A stretch of DNA of 64,000 nucleotides from positions 43,836,001 to 43,900,000 of the forward strand of contig CM059432.1 of NCBI GenBank assembly GCA_030390025.1. The letters are read 5' to 3'. The notes beneath the pieces are model-generated. The model was not told the origin of the DNA. It was given only the letters and a program-made list of their open reading frames with translations, and searched no databases. The position numbers and the translations under genes were made by a program. Source of the stretch: Squalus acanthias (lineage: Eukaryota). Below are positions 12,011-64,000 of this stretch, one piece after another (within the stretch, counting starts at the first letter, position 1; every line of letters begins with the position of its first letter).

Positions 12011-12749
12011 CTATTAAACCTTCTTCTGCTAATACTGGTTGTTATCAGTTCTGGGCCTATATTTGTGCTGTCACACACAATGCCACTTCCTACTGGTCGA
12101 CTCTCTGGCATGCCAACAGATTGACACAAAAAGATGTAAAAAAGAAGTTTAAAAAGTCCATTTGAAATAAATTTTAAATATTTATTTCAAAATAGGTTCA
12201 GGTACAGTGAGTCACAGGGGAAGAAATTCAGTTGGTTAGCACCTCCCATTAGCGCCTGGCAGGAGTGCTAACGGGGCACTAATGAAGTAGTGCCGGGGCG
12301 CGGCAAATCCAGTGCCGCACGTCAAATCCAGTCGCCCCTTAGCGCCGCCACTAACAGAGAGTGCCTGGGGCTTTAGCACCAGGCAGATCACGATGTTAGT
12401 GAGCGTGCAACACTCACTGAGCGCCCGATCTGCCAAATTGATTATCGCCCCCTGCCTTAGCGCCTTGCCCCGACAATGACAGGAAGAGGAAGCGTGAAGC
12501 AGCCGGATGGCAGCTCCAGGGGCGATATTTAAAGGGATCAGTCACAGCTGCCAGGTTGGTGCTGTTTCACTGCTTCCTTATCAGTTTGCGATTGTGCAAG
12601 AGTTCAATTCAGTCATTTGAAGGTTCTTTAGTATCAGGAGTGTTGTGGCTACTAAAAATTTGTTACATTTATTCTGACAAAATTTCAAAGTGCTACACAT
12701 TGTTACATTAATGCAGGCTGTACTGTCAGTCGACTTTGCCCTCTAGGAT

Positions 12750-12860
12750 CTAAGAACATAAGAACATAAGAAATAGGAGCAGGAGTAGTCCAATCGGCCC
12801 CTCGAGCCTGCTCCGCCATTCAATGAGATCATGGCTGATCTGATCCAACCTCAACTCTAA
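12750..12860 (-). mobile_element. Short 5'-truncated CR1 tail
   Basis: (taagaaca)n plus CR1 3' stem-loop. Confidence 0.8.
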
Positions 12861-13318
12861 AGAACACAAGAAGTACTGCGGAGGGAGCAGAGGCAGCAAG
12901 AAAGATTGCAAGATGTGACCAGAGGAAGGAGCCATCAGGACTCTCAACAGGAGGCCTTACCTTCCTAGGGTATTCCGAGAGCACTTCTCCTACCTCCAAT
13001 TAAACGAGGAGCAATGCATTACAAGGCTCCGCTTCAGCAAAGATGTGGTCACAGAGCTCTGCCACCTCCTGCAACCAGACCTCGAGCCTCAGATCAGGTC
13101 GACCACGGCTCTCTCAGTGGCAGTCAAGGTCACCGTCGCCCTCAATTTCTTTGCCAGTGGTTCCTTCCAGTCTGCAACAGGAGATATAGCGAACATCTTG
13201 CAGCTCATCATCCACCGCTACATCCAGGAGGTGACAGAGGCTCTCTACAGTAGGAGAAGGGATTACATTACCTTCCCTATCACCAGAGAGAAGCAAGACA
13301 AACGTGCATGTGGCTTTG

Positions 13319-16300
13319 GGGAATCACAAATCAGAGCGTGGCAGGAAGGGACAGAGTGTGTGGAGTAAAAGGTAAAGTGGTAAAAAGTGAGAAAGCAGGA
13401 ACTAAGTGCCACAAAGCATATTTGAAAGTTCTCTATCTGAATGCACGTAGCATTCGTAACAAAATAGACGAGTTAATGGCACAAATAACTACATATGGTT
13501 ATGATATTGTGGCCATTACAGAAACATGGCTGCAGGGTGACAATGCCTGGGAATTAAACATACCAGGTTATTTAACGATCAGGAAGGACAGGCAGGAAGG
13601 AAGGGGAGGTGGGGTGGCTATGTTAATAAAGGAAGGAATCACTGTAATACAGAGTAATGATATTGGGTCAAAAAATCATGATAATGAAACAGTTTGGGTG
13701 GAGATAAGGAATAATAAGGGGAAAAAAACACTAGTGGGCGTAGTCTATAGGCCTCCGAACAGTTGCAACTCTGTTGGACGGAGTATCAATCAGGAAATAG
13801 TTGAGGCATGTAATAAGGGAACATCTATAATTATGGGGGATTTTAACTATCATATTAATTGGACAAATCAAATGGGGCAGGGCTGCCTTGAGGATGAGTT
13901 CATTGAGTGTATTAGGGATGGGTTTCTTGAGCAGTATGTAACTGAACCGACCAGGGGGCAAGCAACCTTAGATCTGGTCCAGTGTAACGAGACAGGATTA
14001 ATTAAAAATGTCCTAGTAAAGGATCCCCTTGGAATGAGTGACCATAACATGGTTGAATTCCATATTCAATTAGAGGGTGAGAAGGTTGGATCTCAAACAA
14101 GCGTGCTAAGCTTGAATAAAGGAGACTATGAAGGTATGCGAGCGGAATTGAGTAGAGTGGATTGGGAAAATAGATTAAAGGGTAAGACGACACATGATCA
14201 GTGGTGTACATTCAAGGAGTTATTTTACAACTTCCAAAAAATATATATTCCACTGAAAAGAAAAGGGTGTAAAAGAAAGGACAGTCATCCGTGGCTAAGT
14301 AAAGAAATTAAGGATAGTATTCGACTAAAAACAAGGGCATATAAGGTAGCGAAATCTAGTGGGAGGACAGAGGATTGGGAAAACTTTAAAAGGCAGCAAA
14401 AAATAACAAAAAGATTGATTAAGAAAGGGAAGATAGATTATGAAAGTAAATTAGCAAAAAATATAAAAACAGATAGTAAGAGTTTTTATAGTTATATAAA
14501 AAGAAAAAGGGTGGCTAAAGTAAATGTTGGTCCTTTAGAGGATGAGACCGGGAAATTAATGGTGGGAAATATGGAGATGGCAAAAACACTGAATCAATAT
14601 TTTGTATCAGTCTTTACAGTAGAGGACACTAAGAATATCCCAACACTGGACAAACAGGGGGCTATAGGGGGAGAGGAGCTAAACACGATCAAAATCACTA
14701 AGGAAGTGGTACTCGGTAAAATAATGGGACTCAAGGCGGATAAATCACCTGGACCTGATGGCTTACATCCTAGAGTCTTGAAGGAAGTGGCGGTAGGGAT
14801 TGTAAATGCATTGGTAATAATTTTTCAAAACTCCCTGGATTCGCTAAGGTCCCGGCAGACTGGAAAACTGCTAATGTAACACCCTTATTTAAAAAGGGCA
14901 GTAGACAGAAGGCTGGTAACTATAGACCGGTTAGCCTAACATCTGTGGTAGGTAAAATTTTGGAGTCCATTATTAAGGAAACAGTAACAGGACATTTGGA
15001 TAATCATAATTTAATAGGACAAAGTCAGCATGGTTTTACGAAGGGGAAGTCATGTTTGACAAATTTGCTGGAGTTCTTTGAGGAAGTAACATATAGAGTG
15101 GATAAAGGGGAACCAGTGGACGTAGTGTATTTAGACTTCCAAAAGGCATTTGACAAGGTGCCACACAAAAGATTATTGCTTAAGGTAAAAAATCACGGGA
15201 TTGGGGGTAATATTCTGGCATGGATAGAGGATTGGCTATCTAACAGAAAGCAAAGAGTTGGGATAAATGGTTCATTCTCAGACTGGCAATCAGTAACTAG
15301 TGGTGTTCCACAGGGGTCAGTGCTGGGTCCCCAACTCTTTACAATCTATATTAACGATTTGGAGGAAGGGACCAAGTGTAACATATCAAAATTTGCAGAT
15401 GATACAAAGATGGGAGGGAAAGTAGTGAGTGAGGAGGACATAAAAAACCTGCAAGGGGACATAGACAGGCTAAGTAAGTGGGCAGAGATTTGGCAGATGG
15501 AATACAACACTGGAAAGTGTGAGGTGATGCACTTTGGCAGGAAAAATCCTAGAGCAATTTATTATCTTAATGGCAAGAAACTGGAGAGTACTGAAGTGCA
15601 AAGGGATCTGGGGGTCCTGGTGCACGAAACTCAAAAGGTTAGTATGCAGGTGCAGCAAGTGATTAAGAAGGCAAATGGAATGTTGGCTTTCATTGCTAGG
15701 GGGATAGAATATAAAAATAGGGAGGTATTGCTTCAGTTGTACAAGGTATTGGTGAGACCGCACCTGGAATACTGCATACAGTTTTGGTGTCCTTACTTAA
15801 GAAAAGACATACTTGCTCTCGAGGCAGTGCAAAAAAGGTTCACTCGGTTAATCCCGGGGATGAGGGGGTGGTCATATGAGGAGAGGTTGGGTAGATTGGG
15901 ACTCTACTCATTGGAGTTCAGAAGAATGAGAGGCGATCTTATTGAAACATATAAGATTGTGAAGGGGTTGGATCGGGTGGATGCGGGGAGGATGTTCCCG
16001 ATGACGGGTGAGACTAGAACTAGGGGACATAGTCTTAGAATAAGGGGCTGCTCTTTCAAAACTGAGATGAGGAGGAACTACTTCACTCAGAGGGTGGTAG
16101 GTCCACGGAATATGCTGCCACAAAAAGCTGTAGAAGCTACATCATTAAATAAATTTAAAACAGAAATAGACAGTTTCCTAGAAGTAAAGGGCATTAAGGG
16201 TTACGGGGAGCGGGCAGGAATTTGGACATGAGTCTAGGTTCGGATCGGTCATGGCCCTATGGGTAGCGGAGCGGGCCCAGGGACCGTGTAGCCTGATTCT

Positions 16301-16470
16301 GCTCCTATTTCGTGTGTGCAATTCTGTTAGATACAGGAGATGGTTCTGTGATAGATAGTAGATTGGCGGTTAGGATCAGATCAGCCATGATCTTATTGAA
16401 TGGCGGAGCAGGCTCGAGGGGCCGATTGGCCTACTCCTGCTCCTATTTCTTATGTTCTTATGTTCTTATG
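13319..16470 (+). mobile_element. CR1 (HER1-like) LINE with near-complete ORF2 (APE endonuclease + RT), one frameshift near 14850
   Basis: YLNARS, ITETW, GVVYRPP, MGDFN and SDHN endonuclease motifs; PQGSVLGP and FADDT RT motifs; (ttcttatg)3 tail. Confidence 0.95.
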
Positions 16471-18119
16471 ATAGCGGGCTTCTGCATGGTGCAGGGATTG
16501 TGGGACCACCTCAGGAGGAGGAAGAGGGAGAGGAGTAGGAGGACAAGGACAAGGACAAGGAGGAAGAGGAAGATGAGGAAGAGGAGGAGGAGGAGAAACA
16601 AGAGCAAGGGAGGAGGCAGCCACTCAATCAGTCTTCTGGAAGGGCGGTCCGTGACCGCTTCATCAGACTGTGGTTCCAATAAATTAAACCCCAGATCCCC
16701 GTTGCTCACCACATCATTCCATTCCTGTCGCAGGCCATATCACAGCGCAAAAATGAATTGAGAGACACCACAAAATCATCCAAAGCCAATTAATAAATTT
16801 ATGAATAATCAATGAGCACATATTTACAACAACAACATTCATTATTCTCCCTTGTGCAATCCCTCAGTGCCTGTCATTACTGTGCCTTTTCCAATCTAGA
16901 GCTCCTACGAAGTGTTGGCCCAGTGGCTGCAGCACGGCGGGTGGAAGGCTGCCAAGTGTCCGTGCAGGAGACTTCAAATGACCTTGCAGGAAGCTCTTGA
17001 CCAGCTCTGGGCCTGGAAGGCCCGGCTGTAGACTGCACCACCTCAGCCTGGGCGGCAGCAGTCTAGGCTGGCTGGATGACAGGCAGCGACAAGGGTAATG
17101 GCGGAGTGCCAGTGGTGGGAGCAAGAACACTGCCATCCTGAGAGAGGACAGCAGCTCCCTGCTCCACTGACCCACTGCCACTCCCCCGGGGCAGCACCTC
17201 AGCATCACTACCAATCTGCTGGAGCACAGATTGCTGGCCTGCTGAGAAGGCGTGAAAGCCCCGGTGGACGGTGGTCAACCCAGCCACGATGGCAGCAGTC
17301 AGAGCTTGCGTGGCATCAAGCTGAGACTGCATGAGAGCAGTCTGAGATTCGATGGCACCAACCATAGACTGCATTACAGCACTAAGACGTTGCGTCGTTT
17401 CCGCCTGTGCTGCAATGGAAGCTGCGACATCGCACATCACACGCAGCATGAGGTCTGGTTCCCCTACGATCTCTCTGGGAGACCACCATCCTTTGCAGAC
17501 TGCAAATGATGGGCTCCATGGTGTGCGCAGAGCTCTGTGCAATGTTGGAGGCGGACTCCTCCACGCTCCTTACCATTGCCGAGAGGCTCTCAGGGCACCC
17601 TTGCCATTGCACCTATCATCTCCGTGTGCATGCCCTTCACCCTTCTTCTATAGGCCTACCCATTCAAGTCCTCATCGGAGTCCTGTGCAGCAGAACTCGC
17701 ACACAAATTCGCCCTCCGGGGAGCTGGCCCCCGAGCTACCCTTTCCCCCTGGCTTGCTGCAGCCCACTCGTCCCCAATGCCTCACCCTGTGCAGATCCTG
17801 CTACTATACTAGCCTCTAAAGATTGCGTAGGGCCAGTGTCTGAGCTGGTGCCTGCGGGTGAGACATGCAGTGACGCGGTGTGTTCTTCCTCCTCCTCTTC
17901 TTCCACCTCACTCTCTGCAGTGCCATCAGGGAAAGTCTGCTCAGGTGCTTGCTCATTATCTGAAAGCATAAAGGCACAAGAGTCGGGTTAAGGTGAGGAG
18001 AGGGGGCGGGAAGAGAGAAAGGCATGCATACAGCATGATTAGCTGGAAAGTGGGAAAGGCTTGTGGGGTGAGGGGGAAGTGGGATGTGAGAAGAATGAGT
18101 AGGGATAAACATACCATTG

Positions 18120-21096
18120 TTAGAACATAACAACATAAGAAATAGGAGCAGGAGTAGGCCATTCGACCCTTTGAGCCTGCTCTGCCATTCAATGAGATCA
18201 TGGCTGATCTTCTGCCTCAACTCCATTCATCGGCCCTATCGCCATATCCCTTGATGCCCTTACTAGTCAGGAATCTATCGACTTCTGTTTTGAATATAGC
18301 CAATGACTGAGCCTCCACAGCCCTCTGGGGTAGTGAATTCTCTTCTCATCTCAGTCCTGAATGGCCTACCCTTTATCCTGAGGCTGTGGCCCCTGGTTCT
18401 AGACTCCCCAGCCAAGGGAAACATTCTCCCAGCATCCACCCTGTCAAGCCCTGTAATAATTTTGTATGCTTCAATGAGATCCCCTCTCATTCTTCTGAAT
18501 TCAAGAGAATACAGGCCTAGTTTACTCAATCTCTTCTCATACAACAGTCCCGCTATCCCAGGAATCAATCTCGTGAACCTTCGTTGCACTCCCTCTATGG
18601 CAAGTATATCCTTCCTTAGGTAAGGAGACCAAAATTGTACACAGTACTCCAGGTGTGGTCTCACCAAGGCCTGATATAATTGGAGTAAGACTTCTTTACT
18701 CCTGTACTCAAATCCTCTTGTAATGAAGGCCAGCATACCATTTGCCTTCCTAATGGCTTGCTGCACCTGCACATTTACTTTCTCATGTACAAGGACTCCC
18801 AGGTCCCTTTGAGCATCTGCATTCCCCAATCTTTCACCATTTAGGAAATACTCTGCCTTTCTGTTTTTTCTACCAAAGTGGATAACTTCACATTTATCCA
18901 CATTATATTCCATCTGCCATGTTCTCGCCCACTCACTGAGCCTGTCGAGATCCCCTTGAAGACTCTTCACATTCTCTTCACAACTGACACTCCCACCTAG
19001 CTTTGTATCATCAGCAAATTTGGAAATGTTACATTTAGTCCCCTCATCCAAATCATTGATATAGATTGTGAATAGCTCGGGCCCAAGCACCGATCCTTGC
19101 GGTACCCCACTAGTCACAGCCTGTCATCCTGAAAAAGACCCGTTTATCCCTACTCTTTGTTTTCTGTCTGTTAACCAATTCTCAATCCATGCTAGTATAT
19201 TACCCCCAATTCCATGTGCCCTAACTTTGTTCACCAACCTCTTGTGTGGGACCTTATCGAAGGCCTTCTGAAAATCCAAATACACCACATCTACCTGTTC
19301 CTCTTTGTCTACTCCACTAGTTACATCCTCAAAGAACTCCAATAGGTTTGTTAAACAGGATTTCCCTTTCATAAATCCATGTTGACTCTGCCCAATCTTA
19401 CTATTAGTTTCTAAGTGCCCAGTTATTACATCCTTTATAATAGATTCCAGCATTTTCCCAACTACTGATGTGAGGCTAACAGGCCTGTAGTTCCCCGTTT
19501 TCTCTCTCCCTCCTTTCTTAAATAGCGGGGTTACATTTGCTATCCTCCAATCTGCAGGAACCATTCCAGAATCTATAGAATTTTGGAAGATGACAACCAA
19601 TGCGTCCACTATCCCAATGGCCACCTCTTTCAAAACCCTAGGATGTAGGTCATCCGGTCCTTGGGAGTTATCGACTTTTAGTTCCATTAATTTTGCTAGT
19701 ACTGTTTTTTTCCTAATGTTGGCCCAGAAATTCGCCTCTCCGGCTTGCCACTGGGGTAAGGATCGCGCGCGCTCTTACCTACAGCGCCTGCTGTTGTGTT
19801 TTGGGCCCACAGGAACTTCGGGTCCTGGGCCTCTCCCAACTGCCGGCGCGCAGTGCTTGCGTGTTCCAGGGGCGCAGTTAGTGCGATGCGTCCCCTGGGA
19901 TCATGTGGGCTATGGAGAGCCAATGGCAGCAGACCATCTTTCATTCATAGATTTGACAGGAGACCTGTCAAATCTGTGAATTGAAATCAGCCCCAAAAGA
20001 ACAGCTAAACTTATAATAATTTTTTTAAAAAACCATCACATTTATAAAATAACTATAGTTAAATAAATTAACCACTTTAAACAAAAATTTTAATTTTTGA
20101 AAAAATTAAAATACTTTTTAAAAGTTATAAAAATAAAAATACTTTTCTTTAAAGTATCTAAAAAAGATAAACCTATTGAAAAAAATTTAAAATTATACTT
20201 AATTAACCACTTACCTTGTTCAAAATGGGTCTTACGCCTCCTTTTCATTAGCGTAGTATCTTCAATACTTACCCTCGCGTAGAAACCTGAAAAAAAATCT
20301 AAGTGTGCTGCGTGCGTGCAGCCTCTAGCGTGCACGCGGTTCACCTAGGAACCGCCCCCTTCACCATACCGGAAGTTCCGGTTTCCCGCGCATGCGCAGT
20401 GCATGCAGGAAACCGGCACTTCGGGAAGCTATACGGGTGAGTACAGAGCGCGTACTCACCCGGGAAGGGCCGAATTTTTGGGCCAGTAATTTCTTTAAGT
20501 TCCTCATTCTCGCCACACCCTTGGTTTTCTTGTATTTCTGGGAGGTTTTTTGTGTCTTCCTCCGTGAAGACAGAAACAAAGTATTTATTTAATTTCTCGA
20601 CCATTTCCTCATTCCCCGTTATAAATTCTCCCGTCTCTGACTGTAAAGGACCTACATTTACCTTCACCAGTCTTTTCCTTTTCACATACCTATAGAAGCT
20701 TTTACAATCCGTTTTTATATTTTTTGCTAGTTTGTGCTCATTCCATTTATTCCATTTTCCTATTCTTTATCAATTTCTTGGTCCCCCTTTGCTGATTTCT
20801 AAAAAGATCCCAATCCTCAGGCTGACCGCTTTTTCTGGCAACTTTATAAGCTTCCTCCTTTGACTTAATACTAGCTTTAATTTCTTTTGTTAGCCATGGT
20901 TGGATCACTTTTCCTTTTGGGTTTTTACGCCCTAGAGGAATATATGTTTGTTGCAAATTATGCATTATTTCCTTGAATGTTAGCCATTGTATGTCCACCT
21001 TCATACCTTTTAGTGTAGTCTCCCAATCCTCCATGGCCGACTTGTCCCTCATACCCTTGTAGTTTCCTCTGTTTAGATTGAAGACCTTAGTTTCAG
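18120..21096 (-). mobile_element. CR1 LINE (5'-truncated) inserted at the exon 2 donor of the H2 Myb gene
   Basis: RT ORF pieces 18275-19687 and 20341-21052; TSD attg (18116-18119 / 21097-21100). Confidence 0.92.
19721..20484. mobile_element. Harbinger MITE nested in CR1
   Basis: TIRs ggcccagaaattcg / cgaatttttgggcc; CR1 reading frame resumes on either side. Confidence 0.8.
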
Positions 21097-22199
21097 ATTG
21101 GACCCAAAGGGGTCAACATCACTGGTGGCCACAGCACCCACCACCTGGTGCCCAATGATTTGCAGCACTCTTTCTTCCAGCTCAGAAAGTGGTTGGGTGT
21201 CAAGTTGTCCCCAGCCTGTGCGCTCCTGCTCCCTCCTGTTGTGAGCGACCTTGGCCTGCAAGAGAAAGGAAAGTGTGTGAGTGAATGTGGAGCAATGTGT
21301 TTGGGAGATGTGCCTGCCATAGTTGAACAGCTGTCATTGTGTGCAAGGTGTGAGATGTGGGTGTGAGTGTTGGTCGGTAGAGATTGTTGGTGGGTGAGTG
21401 TTGGGGGTCTCGTGCTTTGGGCAGTGTTTGCAGACTGAGGTTCAGATGGTGGTATGTAGCATTTGTTGAAGCATTGACTCACCCTGACCACCCGAATGAG
21501 GTCGTTAAATTTCTTCCTGCACTGTGTGTGGGTTCTGGGGACCACAGTGCTGCCAGAGACGTGCTGCACTACCTCCCTCCACATGGTGCGGAAGACTTGT
21601 GGCGAGGGCCTCCTGCCACTTGCCGGGTAGAGCACCGCCCTCCATCCCTCCACAGTGAAAACCAAAGCCTCCAATGCTTCATCGCAGAATCTGCAGGCTC
21701 TCTCCCTGGGGTGTGGATCTGCCATAATGACACCTCCTTCAGTGGTCTGGTTCCTTCTCCTTGGTCTTCTGCTGCTTGCTGAGACAGCTGCAGAACCAGC
21801 AATGCTGAGAATGAGGTTCTGCAGCATGATTGAACCTCCCCTTTAAGGACTGGAAAGAGCCTGTGGCAATGATGACTAGCGATTCGACTGCACCTGAAGT
21901 TGCTTAGAGCTTTGAGTCTAACGCCACTGAGCTAGGCTGTTAGCGCTTGATTTAGCGCTCCAGTCCTTTCTTAGAGCGCTGACACTTAATTTAGCTTGCA
22001 GCAAGATTCATTAGTGCCTGGCGCTAAATCTCAAACTTTTCAGAAGTTAGCGCCCATTCTTGGGCTGTAATGAATTTCTCCCCCATATTGTCCTAGCACC
22101 CATATCAGCAAACTCTAAGGGACTAAGTGGCTAGCTCTTTCAGAGAGCTGGTACAGGTGCGATGGGCCAAATGGCCTCCTCTGTACCATAAAATTCTAT

Positions 22200-23092
22200 G
22201 GGGGAGAAATTCAGTATCGCCCCATTTGGGGCGCAATTATCGGCCGGGCGCAAAGATTAGCGCCTGGCGCTAATTATCGCCACCGACTGCAAACTTGACT
22301 TTTATCGCCCCTGGAGGTGATTGGAGCGCAAAATCAGGCGCTTCACACCTGTCTTAAGGCACAAAGGCCGAGGAGCGAGGCGCTACCTCAGAGCGCTGGC
22401 GAAGCTCATGTAATGTCAGTCAGCAATGGAACACACACACAATGGCACGGGCCAGTTCTTTAAGGGGATGGTTAATCTTGCTTTCCATCCACATCCTGCT
22501 CATTGCAGCCTTGAATCTCGGCCTGGAGAGACCTGCACATCAAATCTGCTGGAAAGAACAATGGAGAGTACCAGGCAAAGAGCTCAGAGTGCAGCCCCCA
22601 CAGTCTCTTCTAAATCGATACAAGGAATGGCAAATCAAAATGAACCTGCAAAGTGCTGCTCAGTACCCAAAACTCCTTCACACAACGTTGAATCTCTCCA
22701 GAAGTCTCTCTCTCTCTCTCTCAGAATGCGTAGTTAAAAAATGGCACCAACAATAAAAGGCAGGAAGCGGTCACCTTTAAATAGCGCTCCCTCTTTCCCT
22801 TCATGACTGCAGAACGCTCCCCTCAACCTGTCGTTGCTAGCGTCAGGCGGTAAGGCAGGGGGCGCCACTCAATATCCGCTCCGGGGCGATACCGGGGCGT
22901 TGCGCACTCGACTGACGTCACGATCTGCCGGCGCAGGAGATCGTGGCGGTAGTGTTTAGCGCCGCCGCAAAATGTCTAGTTAATTTCGCGAGCGGCGCAA
23001 ACTTCACCGCGCCTGGGCGCTAGATGCTTTGCGCCCCATTAGCGCCCTCTTAAGGCGCTAACGGGAGGCGCAACCAACTGAATTTTTCCCCG
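22200..23092 (-). mobile_element. Non-autonomous Harbinger H3 (H2-like ends, inverted) inserted in a CR1 tail
   Basis: TIRs gggggagaaattca / tgaatttttccccg; TSD tat/tat; CpG-rich termini. Confidence 0.85.
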
Positions 23093-34211: not shown

Positions 34212-34367
34212 GGGGGTGGATTTCCACGGAATTCTCCCGTTCATCTCCAGCAGATGAGCCATATAAACCCTGGAAATGCAGTGTAAACAGAGCTTACACT
34301 ATTTTTCCAGCTCTTCTGCCAAAGTTATGTTGGACAATCAGGAGAACCCCTGTGGAAATTCTCCCCC
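34212..34367. mobile_element. ~155-bp Harbinger-like MITE
   Basis: TIRs gggggtggatttccac / gtggaaattctccccc. Confidence 0.65.
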
Positions 34368-34857: not shown

Positions 34858-37800
34858 GGGGGTCATTTTCAAGTAGAGCGTAAACATAAGAATATAAGAA
34901 CATAAGAAATAGGAGCAGGAGTAGGCCATTTGGCCCTTCGGGCCTTCTCCGCCATTCAATAAGATCATGGCTGATCTTCTACCTCATCTCTACTTTCCTG
35001 AACTATCCCCATATCCCTTGATTCCCTTAATATTCAAAAATCTATAGATCTCTGTCTTGAATATACTCAACGACTGAGCCTCCACAGCCCTCTGGGGTAG
35101 AGAATTCCAACATTCACCACCCTCTGAATGAAGAAATTTCTCCTCATCTCAGTCCTAAATGGCCGATCCCTTATTCTGAGACTGTGACCCCCTGGTTCTA
35201 GACTCCCCAGCCAGGGGAAACATCCTCCCTGCATCTACCCTGTCAAGCCCTGTCAGAATTTTGTATGTTTGAATGAGATCACCTCTCATTCTTCAAAACT
35301 CCAGAGAAAATAGGCCTAGTCTACTCAATCTCTCCTCATGGGACAATTCCCCCATCCCAGGAACCAGTCTGGTGAACCTTCGTTGCACTCCCTCTATGGC
35401 AAGTATATCCTTCCTTAGGTAAGGAGACCAAAACTGTACACAATACTCCAGGTGTGATCTCACCTGGGGCCTATATAATTGCAGTAAGACGTCTTTACTC
35501 TTATACTCAAATCCACTTGTAATAAAGGCCAACATACCATTTGCTTTCCTAATTGCTTGCTGTACCTGCATGTTAACTTTCAGTGATTCGTGTACAAGGA
35601 CACCCAGGTCCCTCTGAACACCAACATTTCCCAATCTCTCACCATTTTAAAAATACTCTGCTTTTCTATTTTTCCTGCCAAAGTGAATAACTTCACATTT
35701 CTCCACATTATATTCCATTTGCCATGTTCTTGCCCACTCATGTAGCCTATCTATATCCCCTTGAAGCCTCCTTGCATCCTCCTCACAACTTACATTCCCA
35801 CCCAGCTTTGTATCATCAGCAAACTTGGATATATTACATTTGGTCCCCTCATCCAAACCATTGATATAGATTGTGAATAGCTGAGGCCCAAGTGCTGATC
35901 CTTGCGGTACCCCACTAGTTACAGCCTGCCAACCCGAAAATGACCCATTTATTCCTACTCTCTGTTTTCTGTCCGTTAACCAATCCTCAATCCATGCCGA
36001 AGGGTGGTGGACGGGGCACGTACGCTATGTGCCCAAAGGAGTTGGTGTGGGGGCAGAGTCATTTTAACGGTCAGGCCTAATTTAAATTAATTTGGTGAAC
36101 TGTTAGCGTGAATTGTGTTCCCAATAGATCAGCCATGATCTCATTGAATGACGGAACAGGCTCAAGGGGCTGATGGCCTACTCCTGTTCTTATGTTCCTA
36201 TGTTCCTAATAGACAGCTCTCCAATTATGAGGGCAGGAAATCTGATGGGGCAGCCATTACTTAAAGGTCAGCAGCAGCACCTTAAAGCGAAGGTGGTTTT
36301 CATCATGGGGGACAGCAACCAGAAAACATGTGCAAAAGCAGACAAAATGACTTCCAATAATTCCGACACAGCGGTGGAGATGCCATCACTGAACAAGTGA
36401 CCACCAGGAAAGGTTCCCTCTTCCCTTAAGATGGATTCCAAGACAAACAGGCATGGAGAGAGGTGTCAGAAAATATCAGTACTAGCAGCACTGTCCCAGG
36501 ACCTGGCTGCAGTGAAGTAAAAACTTTAATAATCTGATCAGGAGTGTCAAGGTAAGACACACTTCCACATCTCTCGTACTCTCTCCAGAGTCCTGCAGGA
36601 CCCTACTTTTACTCTAATACTAGAAATCCTTCCCTTCTTCTCTTCCCATGGTTATCCATAAGCCAGCAGTGAAGACTTCACTGCCCCTCCTTTCTACTTG
36701 CACTCAAAACCCCAAAACCTGCTACTACCCTCACGACCACATCTCGATCACAGCGTCACTTGATACTGCTTCTTTTCATCATGCACACTATGGTAAGATG
36801 TCTCACATGTGTTAAAAACTCTTAAAATAATATTAATCCACTTCCACTCTTCTTGCAGAAGAAGCTGGCACATAGCAGGGGAAGACTACCAGAACAGGAG
36901 GAGGTCCTGCCACTCTACAGACACATATACAAATGGAAAAGTACTCCATCGACATTATTGGCAGACAAAGGGCATGCAGCATCAGAGACTGCCAAGCTAG
37001 AGGCCATGTAACTGTGTGGGCATGTTTCCTTTCTTTTCTCTGTCTACCTAATACTCTCAGTCACATGCCACTCCATGTGCTACTGTTTACCTTTGCCATT
37101 AGATGCTAACTTGTCCCTCTCCCCTTTTTATGGTTCCATCAGATGACTCGGGCATTGCAGCCACACAGACTGAGGAGGAGAATCCTCCCGAAGATGCACT
37201 GTCACTTATTCTTACCTTTCCAAGCACCAGTACAGATATCGGCACCTCTGCATGGCATGAATAATGAGTTCGAAGGGTCTGCATTGGGTGGTTTACCAAG
37301 CATGTGAGCAAGAGCAGGTACAGGTGGAAAGGACAGCCCAGGAAACAGCTCACCGGAGGGCCAGTTCACGTCTAGCTCTGTTGAAGAGGGCAGAGATGCA
37401 GACTTCAAGGACTTGGCCTTTAAAGGAAAAATGCATTCTATGCACCAGCAATTGCTGAATGCATTGGAGTGTCTGCCAGGGAGCTTCCACAACATGTTGG
37501 AGAATATGTAAGAGTCTACTACCGACTTGCTCTGGGTTCCGGCACATGGCATTGACACACTGCAGTCAACATGGAATGTGTGGTCACCTCAATGGATGCT
37601 GCAGCTGGGACCCCCCGGCAGGAGCAGGTAATAGCATCTCTTATGATGACAAAGTGCCTGGACCATCGCAACCCCTTGAACCAATGCCCGTCATGGTACC
37701 AGAAAGCCAGCTGGCTAGACTCCTCCAGCAAACATCAGGGCTACTGGTTTACAATGACTGAATGTGTCCAATTCCATTTTTTTTAATGGTATTCTGGGAG

Positions 37801-38331: not shown

Positions 38332-39073
38332 GTGAACTTTGTTTCTCTCCACAGATGCTGCCTAACCTGCTGAGTGTTTCCAGCATTTTCTGTTTTTAGA
38401 ACATATCAAGACTACAAGTTATGTAGAATAAGGTTTTTCTGCACAAAGCTGCCTCCGCTGCACTTCTTCCCATATAAGGCACCGCTGAGTTTGATATCGA
38501 CATAGCAAACTGTTATCTGCCACTGGGCCAAATTTCTACGAGTGCAGATGATGAGGGCTCCAGCCAAGGGACATCTGCTAAGGATAGCGGCCTAGAAATT
38601 CAAGGATTTAGTGTTGGCCGTTAAGGCCCGTTTTGATGAAAGAAATGGCGGCCGCCTCACTTCCGCCCGCTTCCGGCGGGTCCCGTGCAGCCGCCATTTT
38701 AGGCAGGTCGGCAGCATTGTGCTCGCTGGTGATATTTAAATTAGGCAGATCGTGATGTCAGTGAGTGTGCAACGCTCCCTTGTCGCAATTTTCGTGTTCG
38801 ACACTCCGCTTACCAGCCTGTGTTAATCACGACCAGCTGACCAAGCGTTCACTAGCAGGAAGCAGCCTCCAGCAGCATTATTGAAAGGGATCATCATCAA
38901 AAACTTGCAGCTGACATGGTTTTTCAGCTTGACTGGCTCTGTGTAACTTTCTGCCACTCTTACAGCCCTCTAAACTTGTTTCAAGTTCCTGAGATGACAG
39001 GGAGTGTTGGGGCAAGTAAACAATAACTTCATTTTCAGTTCAACAATTCTGCTCACAAAACTTGCTCACACTC

Positions 39074-40179
39074 ATGGGGGTTCTATTTGCAGTCCCCCTC
39101 ACGCTCGAGTATCTTTGGGAGAGGGAGCAGAGGCAGCGAAGGGCAGGAGAAGATGCGTGCAGAGGAAGGAAGAGGAGAGCCAGGATAGCTCTCAACAGCC
39201 ACCTAGGGTCTTCCAAGAGCCCATCTCTTATTTCCACTTAAGCCAGGAGCAGTGCATTAGGAGGCTCCGCTTCACCAAGGAGGTAATCAGGGAACTCTGC
39301 CACCTCCTGCAACCAGACCTGCAGCCTCAGAGCAGGGCGACCACAGCTCTCCCAGTAGCCCTGAAGGTCACCGTGACCCTCAATTTCTTCACCAATGGAT
39401 CCTTCCAGTCTGCAGCAGGAGACAAAGCAAACATCTAGCAGTTCGCTGTCCATCGCTGCATCCGGTAGGTCACAGAGGCTCTCTACACCAGGAGAAGGGA
39501 TTACATTGTCTTCTCTCTGAACAGAGAGAAGCAGGAGGAGCGCGCACGTGGCTTTGCCAAGATAGTGGGCCATGGTGCAGGGTGCCATCGACTGCACCCA
39601 CGTGGCCTGTGGGCGCCGTATACCCATCCTGAGATGTTCTATAACCACAAAGGCTACCACTCACTTAATATGCAGATGTTGTGCGACCACACCCAGCGCT
39701 TCCTGGCCGCATTCATGATGCATTCACCCTGCACTAGTCCAGTGTGCCAGCAATCTTCGGGCCACCACGTCAAACCCAAGGGTGGCTGCTCGGAGACAAG
39801 GGCTATCCGCTCTGCACCTGGCTGATGGCTCCCCTCTGCAACCCCACCACTTGTACCCAGCACTCATATAATGACAGCCATGCTGCCACCAGGAACATCA
39901 TCGAGCCTTGACCACTTGGGAGGAGCCCTCCAGTACTCGCCGGAGCGGGTGTCCCATTTCGTGGTGGTCTGCTGCATGCTTCACAACTTGGCCATCATGA
40001 GGGCGCAGCCCTTGCCACGTGGGATTGCGAGACCACCTCAGGAGGAGAACGAGGGAGAGGAGGAGGAGGAGGAGGAGGAAGAGGAGAAGGAGGACGAGGA
40101 GGAAGGGAGGAGGCAGGCAGCAAATCCCCGTTCCAGACTAGCTGTCCGTGAACACCTCATCAGACTCCGATTCCAGTGA
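39074..40179 (+). pseudogene. Harbinger DDE transposase (HARBI1-like, DDE_Tnp_4) with stops, frameshifts and small deletions
   Basis: [58 protein letters not shown], poly-E tail. Confidence 0.9.
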
Positions 40180-40352
40180 ATGAAACCTCAGATCCCCGTT
40201 GCTCACCACATCCCCATCAACCACATCCCCATCATACCATCCCTCTGTTACGGAACATCACTGCCTCCTCCTGGGCACAAAGCTGAAATGAGAGCCACCA
40301 GAAACCAAACATTCCAAACAAAATTAATAAGTTTATCACTATTCAATCAACA

Positions 40353-42283
40353 TTACAATATGAACGAATCACCCTTGTGCAATCCCTTAGTGCCTGTCGT
40401 TCGTGTGCCTTTTCCTACTTTAGTGCTCCTACGCAGTGCTCCCAAAGTGGCTGCAGCATGGCTGGTGGAAGGCTGCTGAGTTTCCACGGGGGAGACTACA
40501 GATGGCCTTGCAGGACAACCTCGACCAGATGTGGACTTAGAAGGCCCGGCTGTAGACTGCACCACCTTGGTATGGGCGGGAGCAGTCTGGGCTGGTTGGC
40601 TGACAAGCAATGGCAAGGGCAATGGCGGAGTGGCAGTGGTGAGAGTAGGCTGTCATCTTGACAGAGGACAGCAGGTTCTTGCTCCACAGACTCACTGCCA
40701 CTCCACCGGTGCAGCACCTCAGCATTCCTCGCAATCTGTTGTAGGACAGATTGCTGGCCTGCTATGACACCCTGTAAGCTCCTTTCCACACTGGTAAACC
40801 CAGCCACGATGGCAGCAGTCTGAGCTTGGGTGGCAGCAAGTTGAGACTGCAGGAGTGCAGTCTGAGCTTCCACTGCAATACTGAGACATTGGGTCGCTTC
40901 CACCTGTGCTGCAATGGAAGCCGCAAAATCGCCCATCACACCCAGCATCATGGCTGGGTCCACAAGGTCTCTCCTGGAGTTGTCCATCATTTCCCACCTT
41001 GAAATCATGAGCTCCAAGCTCTGTGCAAAACCCTGTCCAATGTTGGAGCCGGACTCCTCCATGGTCCTTGACATTGTCAAGAGGGTCTCTGGCAGGTTTG
41101 CCATTGCACCTAGTATTTTGGTGTGCATGTCCATCACGCTTCTTCTGAAGGCCGCCACATCGAGGTCATCATCTGAGGCATGTGCAGCAGAACCTGTGCG
41201 CGAATTCGCCTTCCGGGGAGCTGGCCCTTGAGCTACCCTTTCCCTCTGGCCTTGCTGCAGCCCACTCATGCCCAGTGCCTCACCATGTGCAGATCCCGCC
41301 TCTATACTACCCTCTACATTCCACGCAGTACCAGTTTCTGAGCTGGTGTCTGCAAGTGTCAGATGCAGTGACGGTGTCCCTTCCTCTTCTACTCCACTCC
41401 CCTCCATAGCATGAGGAACAGGCTGGCCTGCTGGCCATTCTTAGGTATCTGAAAGCAGAAAGGCACAAGAGTCGGGTTGTGGTAAGGTGAGGGGGGATAG
41501 CGGGGGGGGGGGGAAGCAAGATATCCATGGATACAGCATAGGCAGCATGTAAGTGAGAAGAGATTGTGGGATGAGGTGGAAGTGAGATGTGAGAGGAAGG
41601 ATTAGGAATGAGGATACCGTCATTGTCAGCAACGGCTTCAACTTCTCCCATTGCCATGGCCTCGGTGACTTCCCCTCCACGGACTCCTCCTGTTGGCCCA
41701 AGGTCTGCACAGCGGCTTGGCTGCCTCCCGTCTGCCATTTTTCCCAATGGTTGTGAGCCACTTTGGCCTGCAAGAGAAAGGGAAGTGTGTCAGTGAGTGT
41801 AGTGCAATGTGTTTGGGTGATGTGCCTTCCATAATTGAATAGCTGTCAGTGTGTAGAAGGTGTGAAATGTGGGTGTTAGTGTTGCAGCAGTGGTAAGGTT
41901 GTGAGGGTGAAGTGAAGCTATGATTGTGAGGTATGAGTGGTGATAGGTAGAGATTGTTAGTAGGTGAGTGATGGGGTGTGGCGCATTGAGCAGTCTGGTG
42001 CAGATGATGGGCTATGGCATTTCCTGAAACCTTCACTCACCTTGACCTGCCGTGTGAGGCCATTAAACTTCTTTCGGCGCTCCATCCGTGTCCATGGCAC
42101 AAAACTGTTGGCCGTGACGTAGGTAGCTACCTCCTGCTAGAGCCTTCAACTGGTAGCCTTTGATGGTTTCCTGTCACCCTACGGGAACAGGACACCCCAC
42201 CTTCTCTCAACTGCCACTACCAAGGCCTCGAGTGCAGCATCCGAAAATCTTGTGGCTCTCTCTCTGGGTTGTTGCTGTGCCAT
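40353..42283 (-). pseudogene. 3-exon Myb/SANT-like gene of H4 (42041-42283, 41618-41767, ~40353-41448)
   Basis: MAQQQPRERATRFSDAALEALV...RKKFNGLTRQVK|gtgagt with three in-frame stops; same intron positions as H2. Confidence 0.85.
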
Positions 42284-42661
42284 GGCTTCAGGCTGACTGA
42301 CAATGAGGCGCTGCTGCATCAAAGCACCTCCCCTTTAAGTAGCGCAGGGAGCCTAGGCCTAAAATTATTGGCCATTAGACTGCACCTGATATTGGCCCAT
42401 CCTGTTGAGTGCTAAGCCAAACAGCAGCGTGTTTAGCACTGAGATCAGCGCTGCAATCATTATAATGAGCAGGTAGCATGAATGTTGCATGCTGCCTGGA
42501 TAACTTTCAACGGGCGCAGGCAAATAGCGTTGGCCCTTGACAACGCCCATTTTCGGGCCGATATCCTGTTTCTAGGCCAGCATGTCTACACCACGAAGGA
42601 GGGAACAGAAAAGGCAAAAAGTGAAACCTTAAGGTAGGACAAGCAAAACCAGAAGGGTAAG

Positions 42662-43822: not shown

Positions 43823-44256
43823 TAAGTGGTACCATTGTTTTTGTTCAGGATCCATTGTCAGATGTACTGACAGGGAACATGTTATAGATAGCAGGATTGA
43901 GGGCGTGTTATAAAGATACCTAAAGGAGGTACTAGGATCCAAAATAATGGCCTGAATTTTGCGGTGGGTATGATGGCGTACTCAGAGAGTACGTTGTCAT
44001 ACCGCCTTTGAAATATACCGCAAGTTCAGGATTTCCGCATGCGCTTCCCACAACTGGCGAGTTGCAGCGGCAGCTCTTTCACAGAACCGACACAGGCACG
44101 ATGGGCTGAATGGCCTCCTTCTGTGCTGTATGATTCTATGATTTTTCCCATGTGTTTTAAATCTATCCACATAGCGTGTGATTTTTTTGTGTTGATTTTC
44201 CTAGGGCTTCAGATAGGGGTGCAATTGTGGTGCATTCTCAGTGAACTGGACCTAAT

Positions 44257-57205: not shown

Positions 57206-57207
57206 AT

Positions 57208-59814: not shown

Positions 59815-61011
59815 ATGGGAACCATTTATACCCTCTCATCCTGGTCCTCACATTTGGCAGCAGCAGAACCAGGCACAACAGCAGCAGCAACAACAGGAGC
59901 GCCAACCTCCTCCTCAGCCACCTGATGCTGCACAGGGCAGAGGGGGTCAGCACAGGGCTGCACCGCGCCACAGGAGATACCCCCAACACAGGGTTTACAG
60001 GCCAAGGATGAGCATCCTCAACATGACTGAGCAGCAGTGCCAAAGGAGGCTGAGATTTCCGCGAGAGGTAGTCGCTGACATCTGCACAATACTGCAACAA
60101 CACCTGGAGCCCAGAGGAGCGGGTGGACACCCCTTACCAGTGGCTGTCAAAGTCACCACCGCCCGCAATTTTTTTGCTTCAGGGTCCTTCCAGGGATCAT
60201 CAGCAGACATCAGCGGCATCTCCCAGTCGGCCGCACACACTTGCATCACGCAGGTTACCGATGGCCTCTTTGCAAAGGCGCACAATTACATTCACTTCTC
60301 CACGGATGAAGCAAGTATAACCGTGCATGCAGTTGGCTTTGCAAAGGTGGCAGGCTTGCCAAGGGTGCAGGGCATCGTACACATGTGGCCATTAGGGCAC
60401 CCCATCACAACCCAGCTGTATTTGTCAACCACAAGGGCTTCCGCTCCCTTAACGTCCAGCTGGTGTGTAACCACAGGAAGAACATTATGCATGTTTGCGC
60501 AAAGTACCCTGGCAGTTGCCATGACTCGTTCATTCTGTGGCAGTCTACTGTGCCTCAGCTCTTCAATCCGCCAACCCAACTTTCCGGATGGCTACTTGGA
60601 GACAAGGGCTATCCCCTGAAGACGTGGCTAATGACGCCGTTGAGGAGGCCATCAAACGAAGCAGAGGAGCACTACAATACCAGCCACATTTCCACCAGAG
60701 CCATCATCGAGCAAACCATCGGCTTGCTCAAAATGCGATTCAGATGCCTTGACAGATCAGGTGGAGCCCTACAGTACTCACCAGCCAGGGTCTCCAGAAT
60801 CATCGTGGTCTGATGTGCACTGCACAACATCGCACAGCACCATGGCTTCCAGCTGCCTGAAGAACAAGTGGCTCAGTGCATAGCCTCCTCAGATGAGGAG
60901 GAGGAGGAGGAGGAAGACCTTGCAGAGGTGGATGCGCCAGTTCCAGCAGCACGCGAGCACATTGCTGCCCATGATGCAAGGGATGCACTAATCTATGCCA
61001 GATTCGCTTAA
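59815..61011 (+). pseudogene. Harbinger transposase, nearly complete; frameshift removes the first catalytic Asp, stop near 60811
   Basis: [56 protein letters not shown]. Confidence 0.92.
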
Positions 61012-62026
61012 GTTGATGAAGTAAACACATGTGGCTGCCACCTTCTTAACACACCATACACAAAGTACAAGAACCTGTGGGTTCCTATCACTCTCACCAC
61101 CATCATTACTGATGAAAGGCACCCTGGCACCTCACTGTGACACTTCCATTTCTGGGCACACATAAGCCAACTCCTTGAATGTTTGCCATCCCATTTCTTT
61201 ATTGCAATTGAAATGGCGATGATTATATTAAATATGTAGAAACATAGAAAAATAGGAGCCTGCTCCGCCATTCAATATGATCATGGCTGATCCTCTATCT
61301 CAATACCATATTCCCGCTCTCTCCCCATACCCCTTGATATATTACATCAAAACACCTAAGTGACTACCCTTGTGACTATAGGTGCTTAATCTTTCTCTTA
61401 CGAGTGCTTCTACGTGGTGCTTCCCCTGTGGCTTCAGCAGATGTGGAGGCACCTTGCTCACTTTCATGCTGCTCCTGCTTCAACACCTTTGGCAGGCATC
61501 CTTTGGGTTTGCGAGCCTGGGAGGGCTCCTCCTACGGCTGTGCAGGGGCTGAGACAGCCATCTCAGTTGGGTGAGGACTCTGGTGGGGCTCTGACCGAGG
61601 GCTCCGCACTGGCATGGGAGTGTGAGTGCTTGGAGAGGAGCCCCCACTTCCTTGTTGGCTGCCACCAAACATCCCTCTCATGGGTCAGCCGCACTTCAGT
61701 TCTAGCAAGTGGCTGGGCATCACCTTGCTGCACATCAGGTGGACCATGAGGACCCATATCTGCACTGGCAGTCCTCCTCAAAAGGATGTCCATGAAGCTC
61801 TGGTCTCTCTGCTCAATAGTTTCCCATCGCTCCTCCAGAGATGTCATTCTATTCTGAACATTCACCATGTTTTCCTGACTCTGGCGACTTATTTCCTCCA
61901 TGACCATAGCCATCCTTTCCACTGAGGTAGCCATCCTTTCCATGGTGGTGCGTTCATGCGCCATTGCCTCCACAAAGTCACTGCTCAAGATAGAGATGGA
62001 CTCCTCCATCCTCGCCACACTCGCAG

Positions 62027-63436
62027 TTACCCTGGATGCAATGAAAGGATAATTACAAGTCCTAGCCCTTCTCGGGCTACCCAGATCAGGCGTATTCCCC
62101 AGACGTTCACCTTCAACTAAAGTTAGCGGTAGCCGAATCCTATAAGATGCTTAATTGGGTCTAAAGGTCCGACTATCTCTCCCTAAAGGAAAGGAACAGC
62201 CTGAAGATGTTACCGTCCTCCAGATAGCACTTTTAATAAGTTTAACTAGACTGTAACCTTCCGGATATTATGAGGGTCTGGAAAACCCCCCAGAATTCTG
62301 CAACTCCTTACAAAAGAGTGTACAGAAATTGAGTTCACGAGATTGATACAGAAATACTCTGTGAGACAATTTTAAAATATATAGATTTATTAAAGAACCG
62401 ACATGTAGTTAACAGCTGTTTATTTCAATCGCAACTTTAACAGTCCTAAATACAAATAGCTTACATTTCTTATCAGAGATCCTTACTCTCAAATCTTAAC
62501 TTTGTTACATTTCCACACTTCTACTTATTTCTTAATCCAGAATATCCACCAAAATCAAATACCTTGATTACCCGAGACTCAGAGTTGTAGGCCTACAGAG
62601 TGGTTCTGAAGGCGAGAATCGGTTGCCTTTCCAGTGACTTCTGACTTTCTGTCTGAAAAGCTCTATTTTTATAACTTTTTTAGTGGTTTATCCTTTGAAG
62701 TTTTCTGCTGATGTAAGCTAATTATCTCTAGCCATACCTCTGTTGACTTCTTTCTTTCTTACTGTTAATTCAGCTGTTAGCTTTCAGAATTCTGTCTCTG
62801 TATAGGTGTTTCAAAAACTTATATACAATAGTTATTACAGATTTATCTCTTTGATGCCATTCTTTCGAAGGTCTTCAATTCAATTCTTAATATTGGCTTA
62901 ACTGCTTGTATTTCAGACTTCTCGTCTCCTTGTGTTCCAAGTTCAACACATAAACAATGTGATTGCTTTGTCCATCAATTGATGTAATATTTACAAAGTC
63001 TCCTGTTTGTACCTTTTACAATTTGTAAATCAAAAACACTTCATCTAGGATGTTCTTTGCATTTCTTAGCTACTTCAATTGGTTGTATATATAATCTTCT
63101 TTCCTGTTTCATTTAATGTTACTTTTACAAAGGCACATGATTTTTTAATGTTCTGTTTTTCTGTTCGATGTGTTAGTTTTTAACACTTTACTTGGGCATT
63201 GCTATTGTGTTGGTTCCAAACTACAGACTCCTTGGAACCAACTATTTGCTTCTTCAATAGGCCATTGTGTCAGTGTCAATAACCAATCTTTATCTCAAAA
63301 GCCTGTATGGTGTTTATAGCTTTGTGACGTTGAGGCTTTTAGATTTTTAAACCCAGTTTGTCATGTTTTAATAAAATCAGAATTCTGTTCATAGGATGGT
63401 GTATTTTTCCGAATAGGTTTGGCTCATTCCTTTACA
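62027..63436 (-). mobile_element. Candidate ~1.4-kb solo LTR
   Basis: Minus strand begins TGTAAA and ends GGTAAC(t); TATAAAA ~62667-62673 precedes AATAAA ~62386-62391; splits the Myb exon. Confidence 0.45.
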
Positions 63437-63669
63437 TCAAAACCTGCCAGAGCCTCCTGCAATTGTTCCTGGAGTTCCAGCACCGCTCTATTTCTGGATG
63501 GCCCCAGAGGCACAGGGTCTACATGAAGCTGAGCAGAGCTAGGAGCGCCCTGTGGCCTCCGACGAGGACTCTCCACTGCTGTCCCTGTCTCCACCATCTG
63601 CTGATGCTCACTTGTGAGCTGTGAAACACCAGGTGACAACACTACTCTATCTCGCGAAGGCCCCACCAA

Positions 63670-64000
63670 GGTGTGCGTATCTGCACTGGTGCTGGGTGCG
63701 CTTAATTCTGCTGACGCTGCACCCTCAGAGGTTAGAATTAGACATGCCTTTAGAGGAAATTGCACAGGCCCTGACCATCATTTTTCAATCCTCTCTGTCT
63801 TCAGGTGTGGTGCCAGAGGACTGGAGGACTGCTAATGTGGTACCCTTGTTTAAAAAGGGAGAAAAGGATAGACCGAGTAATTACAGGCCAGACAGCCTAA
63901 CCTCGGTGGTGGGAAAATTATTGGAAAGAATTCTGAAGGATAGGATAAATCTTCATTTAGAAAGACACGGATTAATCAAGGATAGTCAGCACGGATTTGT
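63670..64000 (+). mobile_element. CR1 LINE running off the window end
   Basis: PEDWRTANVVPLFKKG..NYRP..SQHGF. Confidence 0.9.

What the first reader, a model, noticed from the sequence alone, without database searches (positions are those of the whole stretch)
38589..42578. Two-gene Harbinger system (DDE transposase plus convergent 3-exon Myb/SANT gene) in several families, reconstructable from this window
Seen: H4 has both TIRs and an agc TSD. H2 (12217-22084) has the same layout and the same Myb intron positions; H1 (6526-8117), H5 (~36340-37740) and H6 (59307 onward) keep parts of it. The transposases have acidic C-terminal tails. H2 Myb exons 1-2 are open and the H6 transposase has few lesions. 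Known: PIF/Harbingers need both proteins, and HARBI1 and NAIF1 derive from them. Inference: a diverse, fairly recent chondrichthyan Harbinger radiation that may be poorly catalogued and from which a consensus active pair could be rebuilt.
Basis: partly seen in the sequence, partly recalled or inferred. Interest (0 to 1): 0.75.

Follow-up and report, generated by a model that had tools for sequence, protein, structure and literature searches.

The report
Fossil Harbinger transposons in a shark
This is a broken copy of a two-gene cut-and-paste jumping element of the well-known Harbinger kind in a likely shark or ray genome; both genes are wrecked and the insertion is shared with another organism, so it is likely an old, ordinary fossil and not a recent element that this window could rebuild.

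Summary
The anatomy is real. H4 (38589-42578) has 10-bp perfect inverted ends, an AGC duplication, a DDE transposase gene and a convergent three-exon Myb/SANT gene. H2 has the same layout and intron positions; H1, H5 and H6 are remnants.

'Fairly recent' and 'reconstructable from this window' fail. H4's transposase has 3 stops and 5 frameshifts; its Myb gene has 4 stops and 2 frameshifts. H2 has lost its catalytic core, and H6's frameshift deletes the first catalytic Asp. 21 core residues occur in no H4-type copy here. A contig of another organism spans H4's left junction at 5.4% divergence, so the insertion predates that split.

The closest relatives are shark and ray gene models named 'putative nuclease HARBI1'. 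Harbingers in sharks are in print; I found no family-level account. This scan already holds 15 Harbinger notes on other DNA of this genome.

Two side leads: (1) at least five conserved shark/ray gene groups, most with a degenerate catalytic triad, fall among the same transposase relatives and are likely unrecognised domestications (outside the window); (2) the SANT exon and arms differ far more between H4 and H2 than their cores do.

The parts
38589..42578 (.). H4: full-length but dead two-gene Harbinger element, 3990 bp
   Evidence: TIR pair and TSD; gene content
38586..38588 (+). left target-site duplication AGC
42579..42581 (+). right target-site duplication AGC
38589..38598 (+). left TIR (10 bp perfect)
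42569..42578 (-). right TIR (10 bp perfect)
39074..40179 (+). H4 DDE transposase pseudogene: D, D and E present; stops at 39436, 39466, 39735; frameshifts near 39189, 39571, 39612, 39701, 39906; E-rich tail about 40043-40113
   Evidence: 74% identity over 365 residues to P0006; PF13359 piece E 3.1e-5, 24.1 bits against a cut-off of 24.8
42041..42283 (-). H4 Myb exon 1 (SANT domain), 3 in-frame stops
   Evidence: PF13873 E 0.019; 55% to P0122 and 61% to P0134
41618..41767 (-). H4 Myb exon 2, 150 nt, frameshifted
40353..41448 (-). H4 Myb exon 3; stop at its third codon, frameshift near 40650
   Evidence: 62% to P0122 over 229 aa; P0125 switches frame there
12217..22084 (.). H2: related family, same layout; catalytic core deleted; three CR1 insertions (about 12752-12880, 13326-16470, 18121-21105) and a nested MITE (19721-20484)
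6526..8117 (.). H1: internally deleted non-autonomous copy (transposase tail, Myb exon 1, both arms)
36340..37740 (+). H5: divergent, decayed Myb-only remnant; no TIR or transposase found
59815..61011 (+). H6 transposase pseudogene of a different clade; stop at 60811, deletion at about 60378 removes the first catalytic Asp
61360..63740 (-). probable H6 Myb exon 3 remnant, split by an insert of about 1.4 kb and cut by a CR1
   Evidence: weak similarity only; no Atlas hit
22200..23092 (.). non-autonomous element with H2-type ends, TSD TAT

Best explanation
H4 is a dead copy of a two-gene PIF/Harbinger-type DNA transposon whose insertion is shared with another organism and is therefore likely tens of millions of years old, and its intact ancestor would have moved by cut-and-paste using both genes. 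In that mechanism (known from other Harbingers, inferred here) the spliced Myb/SANT protein binds sites near the ends and binds the DDE transposase. The transposase cuts at the inverted repeats and joins the element into a 3-base staggered target, which leaves the AGC duplication. H2, H1, H5 and H6 are remnants of other families of the same high-copy group in sharks and rays. The short TIR-bounded elements in the window are likely non-autonomous derivatives. After insertion the copies decayed and were invaded by CR1 LINEs. No copy in the window can encode either working protein. Shown: anatomy, lesions, relatives, shared insertion. Inferred: mechanism, absolute age, mobilisation of the short elements.
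For: TIR and TSD. PF13359 and PF13873 matches, and 74% and 55-62% identity to sawshark proteins that pass both Pfam cut-offs. Lesion counts. Organism-B contig spans 38360-38672 across the junction with 17 differences in 313 nt, against 2 in 294 for organism A. Of 57,625 contigs laid from run X3, 2,906 were at least 99% alike, 11,887 95-99%, 28,465 90-95% and 14,367 85-90%. Only 58 of 127 elasmobranch-named relatives keep D, D and E at the aligned columns, against 56 of 65 others. dN/dS of 0.28-0.62 between window copies (6 comparisons) shows they diverged as separate, once-selected families. Two-protein mechanism as described in the PMC9179366 introduction.
Against: The TIR is short (10 bp perfect; 25-50 bp is usual per PMC9179366). 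AGC fits none of the TSD classes TWA, CWG or ANT (PMC4482050). No empty site was seen. The age rests on one bridging contig, a coded organism label and a mutation rate from another species. Younger copies elsewhere in the genome are not excluded: 5% of laid contigs are at least 99% alike, though they are short and include a high-copy flank repeat. H4's own Pfam scores stay below the curated cut-offs.
Confidence: 0.88

Rival explanations
1. One reading: a fairly recent radiation, with near-intact copies from which an active pair can be rebuilt using this window.
For: H6's transposase has only two lesions. A MITE sits inside a CR1 that sits inside H2, so mobilisation went on after H2 was invaded. 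The family is very abundant and 5% of laid contigs are at least 99% alike. Other copies carry the segment missing at 39906 (119 contigs in X3).
Against: Shared insertion at 5.4% divergence. 7 stops and 7 frameshifts in H4. H6 lacks a catalytic Asp and is another clade. 21 core residues have no H4-type source in the window. The nested MITE is only 76% alike to its paralogue at 9425-10100.
Confidence: 0.07
2. H4's genes are domesticated host genes (HARBI1/NAIF1-like), or the locus is under selection.
For: Close relatives include conserved one-per-species shark and ray genes. One contig of an RNA-like run (175 nt, depth 3.1) matches H4 exactly at 39584-39758.
Against: Both frames are broken many times, the ends are intact and there are many related copies. 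The RNA label is a guess and the contig contains H4's own stop and deletions.
Confidence: 0.03
3. On family structure only: H4, H2 and H1 are mosaics in which the SANT exon and the arms were exchanged or rapidly changed around a shared core, so that each family has its own protein-end recognition code.
For: H4 versus H2: transposase 81%, exon 3 79%, introns 78-88%, but exon 1 67% and arms 62% against a shuffled baseline of 64%. Third-position differences 30 of 118 against 37 of 73, p = 0.0006; dS 0.42 against 1.25. H2 and element 22200-23092 repeat a 7-mer seven times in their arms that is not among H4's top repeats.
Against: Three copies only; short segments; exon 2 is also low (70% over 118 nt). 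Gene conversion homogenising the core, or faster evolution of the arms, gives the same pattern. No breakpoint test was run.
Confidence: 0.4

Closest known systems
Harbinger3_DR of zebrafish (reconstructed; Sinzelle et al. 2008, seen only as cited in passages of PMC3016246 and PMC9179366; the paper itself is not held)
   Same: DDE transposase plus Myb-like partner, TIRs, 3-bp duplication. The flanking preference looks alike: pyrimidine at -1 in 9 of 9 and T at +4 in 8 of 9 window elements, as in its AAACAC-CWG-GTCTTT target.
   Different: TSD is AGC, ATT or TAT here, not CWG. Purine at +1 in only 5 of 9 and A at -4 in 6 of 9. All copies here are dead. No direct sequence comparison was possible.
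Elasmobranch 'putative nuclease HARBI1' and 'myb-related transcription factor, partner of profilin-like' gene models (P0006, P0122, P0123 of Pristiophorus japonicus; many in Heterodontus and Heptranchias)
   Same: 74% protein identity of H4 to P0006; sister in both trees (SH-aLRT 94 and 98); Myb exon 3 62-63% identical; acidic tail shared.
   Different: These are automated gene models of mostly partial or mutated copies, not curated families. P0006 has Lys in place of the catalytic Glu, which H4 keeps.
NuwaI, NuwaII, Pangu and PIF/Harbinger groups of the PHIS scheme (PMC4482050; abstract and passages read)
   Same: DDE transposase plus Myb/SANT gene, about 4 kb, GG-starting TIRs, as in NuwaI.
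   Different: H4's TSD fits none of the group signatures; group placement by phylogeny was not tested.
HARBI1, NAIF1 and MSANTD genes (PMC9392472; passages read)
   Same: Same protein families.
   Different: Those are intact host genes present across jawed vertebrates; H4 is a broken, TIR-bounded, multi-copy element.

Membership tests
PIF/Harbinger (broad sense, two-gene) | DDE transposase of the PF13359 type | tested here: met
   H6 108 bits. H4 piece 24.1 bits (cut-off 24.8, E 3.1e-5) and 74% identical to P0006, which scores 129 bits.
PIF/Harbinger (broad sense, two-gene) | second gene with a Myb/SANT domain | tested here: met
   H2 21.6 bits (cut-off 21.7), H4 15.3 bits; 55% identical to P0122, which scores 41.3 bits.
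PIF/Harbinger (broad sense, two-gene) | terminal inverted repeats | tested here: met
   H4 10 bp perfect, H2 13 of 14; shorter than the usual 25-50 bp.
PIF/Harbinger (broad sense, two-gene) | 3-bp target-site duplication | tested here: met
   Exact in 4 of 9 TIR pairs listed, one mismatch in 4, two mismatches in 1. No empty site seen.
PIF/Harbinger in the narrow sense of Han et al. 2015 | TSD TWA | tested here: not met
   H4 has AGC.
NuwaI group | TSD CWG | tested here: not met
   None of 9 pairs.
NuwaI group | falls in the Nuwa transposase clade | not tested
   No labelled reference sequences were on hand.
Pangu group | TSD ANT | tested here: not met
   H4's AGC does not fit; two short elements with ATT do.
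Potentially active autonomous element | two intact reading frames with D, D and E | tested here: not met
   No window copy qualifies.
HARBI1/NAIF1-type domesticated gene | intact single-copy frame without mobile ends | tested here: not met
A curated Repbase or Dfam family | at least 80% identity over the length of a consensus | not testable with these tools
   No such library is offered.

The most novel reading that the evidence does not exclude
H4 is a fossil of an undescribed shark-and-ray Harbinger radiation older than the shark-ray split. That radiation diversified by changing or swapping the SANT exon and arms around a shared core, and it gave rise to five or more independent, conserved transposase-derived host genes, most without an intact catalytic triad, now hidden under the label 'putative nuclease HARBI1'.
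Probability: 0.45. Interest if true: 0.55.

Novelty: new member of a known kind. Interest (0 to 1): 0.3.

Why it matters
As a locus it matters little: it is a decayed copy of a known kind of transposon, and a reconstructed vertebrate Harbinger already exists. It does answer a stated gap. PMC9179366 found no Harbinger in elephant shark and asked for other cartilaginous fish to be checked; here they are abundant and diverse. It also shows that many shark 'HARBI1' gene models are transposon debris. The larger value lies outside the window: if the conserved shark and ray gene groups are real domestications, sharks recruited Harbinger transposases repeatedly, a parallel to the HARBI1/MSANTD story.

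Tried and rejected
No solved structure matched the transposase profile; the 6 hits at E 0.05-0.9 were unrelated chains. The Atlas gave no usable hit for the H6 minus-strand frame. No RNA holder is listed; the RNA-like run X20 is a guess and was not used as evidence of expression. Summed depths are not copy numbers. A sixth frameshift reported at 40162 was dropped as a feature of P0006's own tail: H4's frame there agrees with H2 and P0020. The careful tree did not finish; both trees are quick ones with SH-aLRT support only. The all-elasmobranch group had support 99 but 17, where P0149 fell outside it. True HARBI1, NAIF1 and Harbinger3_DR sequences were not on hand, so they are in neither tree. 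A host gene was not found: Pfam on 49300-57300 and 61000-64000 gave only reverse transcriptase; other regions were not scanned this way. P0006 and P0199 are near-identical but share the same lost Glu, so they were rejected as a sign of recent activity. Glu-to-Lys can arise by CpG decay, so loss of Glu alone was not taken as evidence of domestication. Look-ups of this scan near the finding and by sequence were blank. The Sinzelle 2008 paper is not held. No supplements were read; the repeat tables of PMC8455134 and PMC12498223 may list families.
Full report
OBSERVATION. H4 runs from 38589 to 42578. Its ends are a perfect 10-bp inverted repeat, each arm found once in the window (about 0.06 expected per strand), and AGC lies on both sides. 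A transposase gene reads on + from 39074 to 40179. A frameshift-aware alignment to P0006, a 396-residue sawshark (Pristiophorus japonicus) gene model, gives 74% identity over 365 residues, with both catalytic Asp and the Glu present. The second gene reads towards it on -: exon 1 at 42283-42041, exon 2 at 41767-41618 and exon 3 at 41448-40353, with GT-AG introns (the exon 3 boundary is read one base off the printed cut). These pieces match the sawshark proteins P0122 and P0134 in order. H2 has the same two intron positions and phases, and H1 and H5 share the first donor position. Pfam: H6 transposase PF13359 108 bits; H4 piece 24.1 bits against a cut-off of 24.8; H2 exon 1 PF13873 21.6 bits against 21.7; H4 exon 1 15.3 bits. 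The close relatives P0006 and P0122 pass both cut-offs. The assignment is therefore secure, although H4's own scores are sub-threshold.

EVERY COPY IS DEAD. H4's transposase has stops at 39436, 39466 and 39735 and five frameshifts, and lacks residues 189, 219-226 and 295-306 of P0006 within the catalytic domain. Its Myb gene has three stops in exon 1, a frameshift in exon 2, a stop at the third codon of exon 3 and a frameshift near 40650. H2's transposase carries two CR1 insertions and jumps from just before the first Asp motif to the tail, so the core is gone; its Myb exon 2 is split by an inverted CR1 that itself holds a MITE. H6's transposase has only two lesions, but one deletes the Ile-Asp-Cys with the first catalytic Asp. 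H1 keeps only the transposase tail, and H5 has no transposase (0 of 120 queries). H6 is 55% alike to H4 in nucleotides and sits in another subclade. The 21 missing core residues thus have no source of H4's type in the window, and the pair cannot be rebuilt from it. Genome-wide it probably could: in run X3, 119 contigs continue at 39906 with sequence that H4 lacks, and the other copies differ from H4 at 42148, the first base of one of its exon 1 stops.

AGE. Of 22 runs listed, 20 hold part of the stretch; they carry eight organism labels in seven studies. I laid four. In X6 (organism B) one 313-nt contig spans 38360-38672, with 229 nt of flank and 84 nt of element, and differs at 17 places. The matching contig of organism A (X3) differs at 2 of 294. 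The insertion is therefore older than the A-B split. With the epaulette shark rate of 7e-10 per base per generation (95% interval 1.4-14.1e-10; PMC10587355, abstract and passages), 2.7% per lineage is about 2-4 x 10^7 generations at the upper and central values. This is rough (another species, one contig, ancestral variation ignored), but it points to tens of millions of years or more. Contigs related to H4 are very many and mostly diverged: of 57,625 laid from X3, 5% were at least 99% alike, 21% 95-99%, 49% 90-95% and 25% 85-90%. These are short contigs and include a high-copy flank repeat, so younger copies elsewhere are not excluded. A MITE nested in a CR1 nested in H2 shows that mobilisation went on after H2 was invaded.

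RELATIVES. In a search with H6's core, 35 of the first 38 rows are shark or ray proteins named 'putative nuclease HARBI1' or uncharacterised, and 3 are unnamed. A search with P0006 gave 628 hits; the 120 listed are mostly the same. Only 58 of 127 elasmobranch-named proteins keep D, D and E at the aligned columns, against 56 of 65 others (column-based, some rows misaligned), as expected of decayed copies. In a quick tree of 63 rows all shark and ray sequences and the three window copies form one group (SH-aLRT 99); in a second tree of 48 rows that grouping had no support (17). H4 is sister to P0006 in both. Its 22-row subclade (99) contains a gene group present in a sevengill shark, three other sharks and two rays, whose branching fits the species tree as I recall it. 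If that group is a set of orthologues, the subclade was already diverse before sharks and rays split.

FAMILIES. dN/dS between window copies is 0.28-0.62 in six comparisons, so they diverged as separate, once-active families. H4 and H2 are about 80% alike over the transposase, exon 3 and introns, but near the alignment baseline over exon 1 and both arms; third positions differ at 30 of 118 against 37 of 73 codons (p = 0.0006). H1 shares exon 1 with H2 (81%). H2 and a short element at 22200-23092 repeat one 7-mer seven times in their arms. This fits a changing recognition code between the SANT domain and the arms, by exchange or fast evolution; it is untested.

MECHANISM. By the account in the PMC9179366 introduction (section read), the Myb-like protein binds the transposase and the element's ends, both genes are needed, and insertion makes a 3-bp duplication. 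I infer the same for H4's ancestor. Among nine TIR pairs in the window the duplication is exact in four (ATT twice, TAT, AGC) and one base off in four. The flanks show a pyrimidine at -1 in 9 of 9, T at +4 in 8 of 9, A at -4 in 6 of 9 and a purine at +1 in 5 of 9. That resembles the Harbinger3_DR target (PMC3016246, passages) and partly agrees with this scan's note e1-7807215. AGC fits none of the TSD classes in PMC4482050 (abstract and passages), so I file H4 under Harbinger in the broad sense only.

WHAT IS IN PRINT. PIF-Harbinger is reported in whale shark (PMC8455134, passages), and Tourist/Harbinger is the commonest DNA transposon type in grey reef shark (PMC12498223, one passage). PMC9179366 found none in elephant shark and asked for other cartilaginous fish to be checked (passages). 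PMC9392472 covers HARBI1, NAIF1 and MSANTD1-4 (passages). Five searches on shark Harbingers and two on background found no family-level description and no report of shark-specific domesticated transposases. The library lacks most subscription papers, Repbase and Dfam were not searchable, and no supplements were read.

SIDE LEAD. Six groups of long, conserved proteins recur across species. Three clusters at 90% identity or more span different shark orders: Carcharodon with two Scyliorhinus species; Scyliorhinus, Carcharodon, Chiloscyllium and Hemiscyllium; Rhincodon, Hemiscyllium, two Chiloscyllium species and Carcharodon. One group includes the ray Pristis at 82-89%. Between groups identity is 45-58%. 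Five groups lack the catalytic Glu; the sixth keeps it in most members but has altered neighbouring motifs. These look like domesticated genes, but synteny, copy number and dN/dS were not tested, true HARBI1 was not in the trees, and none lies in this window.

VERDICT. A real but ordinary fossil: a new member of a known kind, old and dead, interest 0.3. The side leads would deserve about 0.55 if confirmed.

Noticed in passing
outside the window: proteins P0011/P0126/P0127/P0129/P0130/P0131, P0015/P0132/P0200-P0202, P0038/P0144/P0209-P0213, P0027/P0030/P0036/P0193/P0205-P0207, P0013/P0021, P0020/P0024/P0203/P0204: Six conserved groups of Harbinger-transposase-like proteins across shark orders and rays, five lacking the catalytic Glu; candidate elasmobranch domestications labelled 'putative nuclease HARBI1'.
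   Followed up: partly
window 42041-42578 and 38589-39073 versus 21483-22084 and 12217-12711: SANT exon and both arms are far more diverged between H4 and H2 than the core; possible module exchange near Myb intron 1.
   Followed up: partly
window 9425-10100, 19721-20484, 22200-23092, 23868-24491, 33066-34367, 43949-44947: At least six short TIR-bounded elements with GG(G/C)-starting ends and ATT/TAT-type duplications; 34 TIR-like motifs against 8.4 in shuffles.
   Followed up: partly
window 41782-41824 (Myb intron 1): Many related contigs in all four runs show a 37-40-nt tandem step here, and depth is far above the rest of the element: a minisatellite-like expansion in other copies.
   Followed up: no
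window about 62055-63450: An A+T-rich insert of about 1.4 kb splits H6's probable Myb exon 3; no Pfam match.
   Followed up: no
window 13326-16470: CR1 ORF2 copy inside H2 with only two long frames (541 and 485 aa), so probably much younger than H2.
   Followed up: no
window 39584-39758: One 175-nt contig of an RNA-like run matches H4 exactly, including its stop and deletions; could be intronic RNA or DNA carry-over.
   Followed up: no
protein P0134 (outside the window): A sawshark gene model fusing an H4-type SANT exon pair to a transposase; probably two neighbouring elements joined by the annotation.
   Followed up: no
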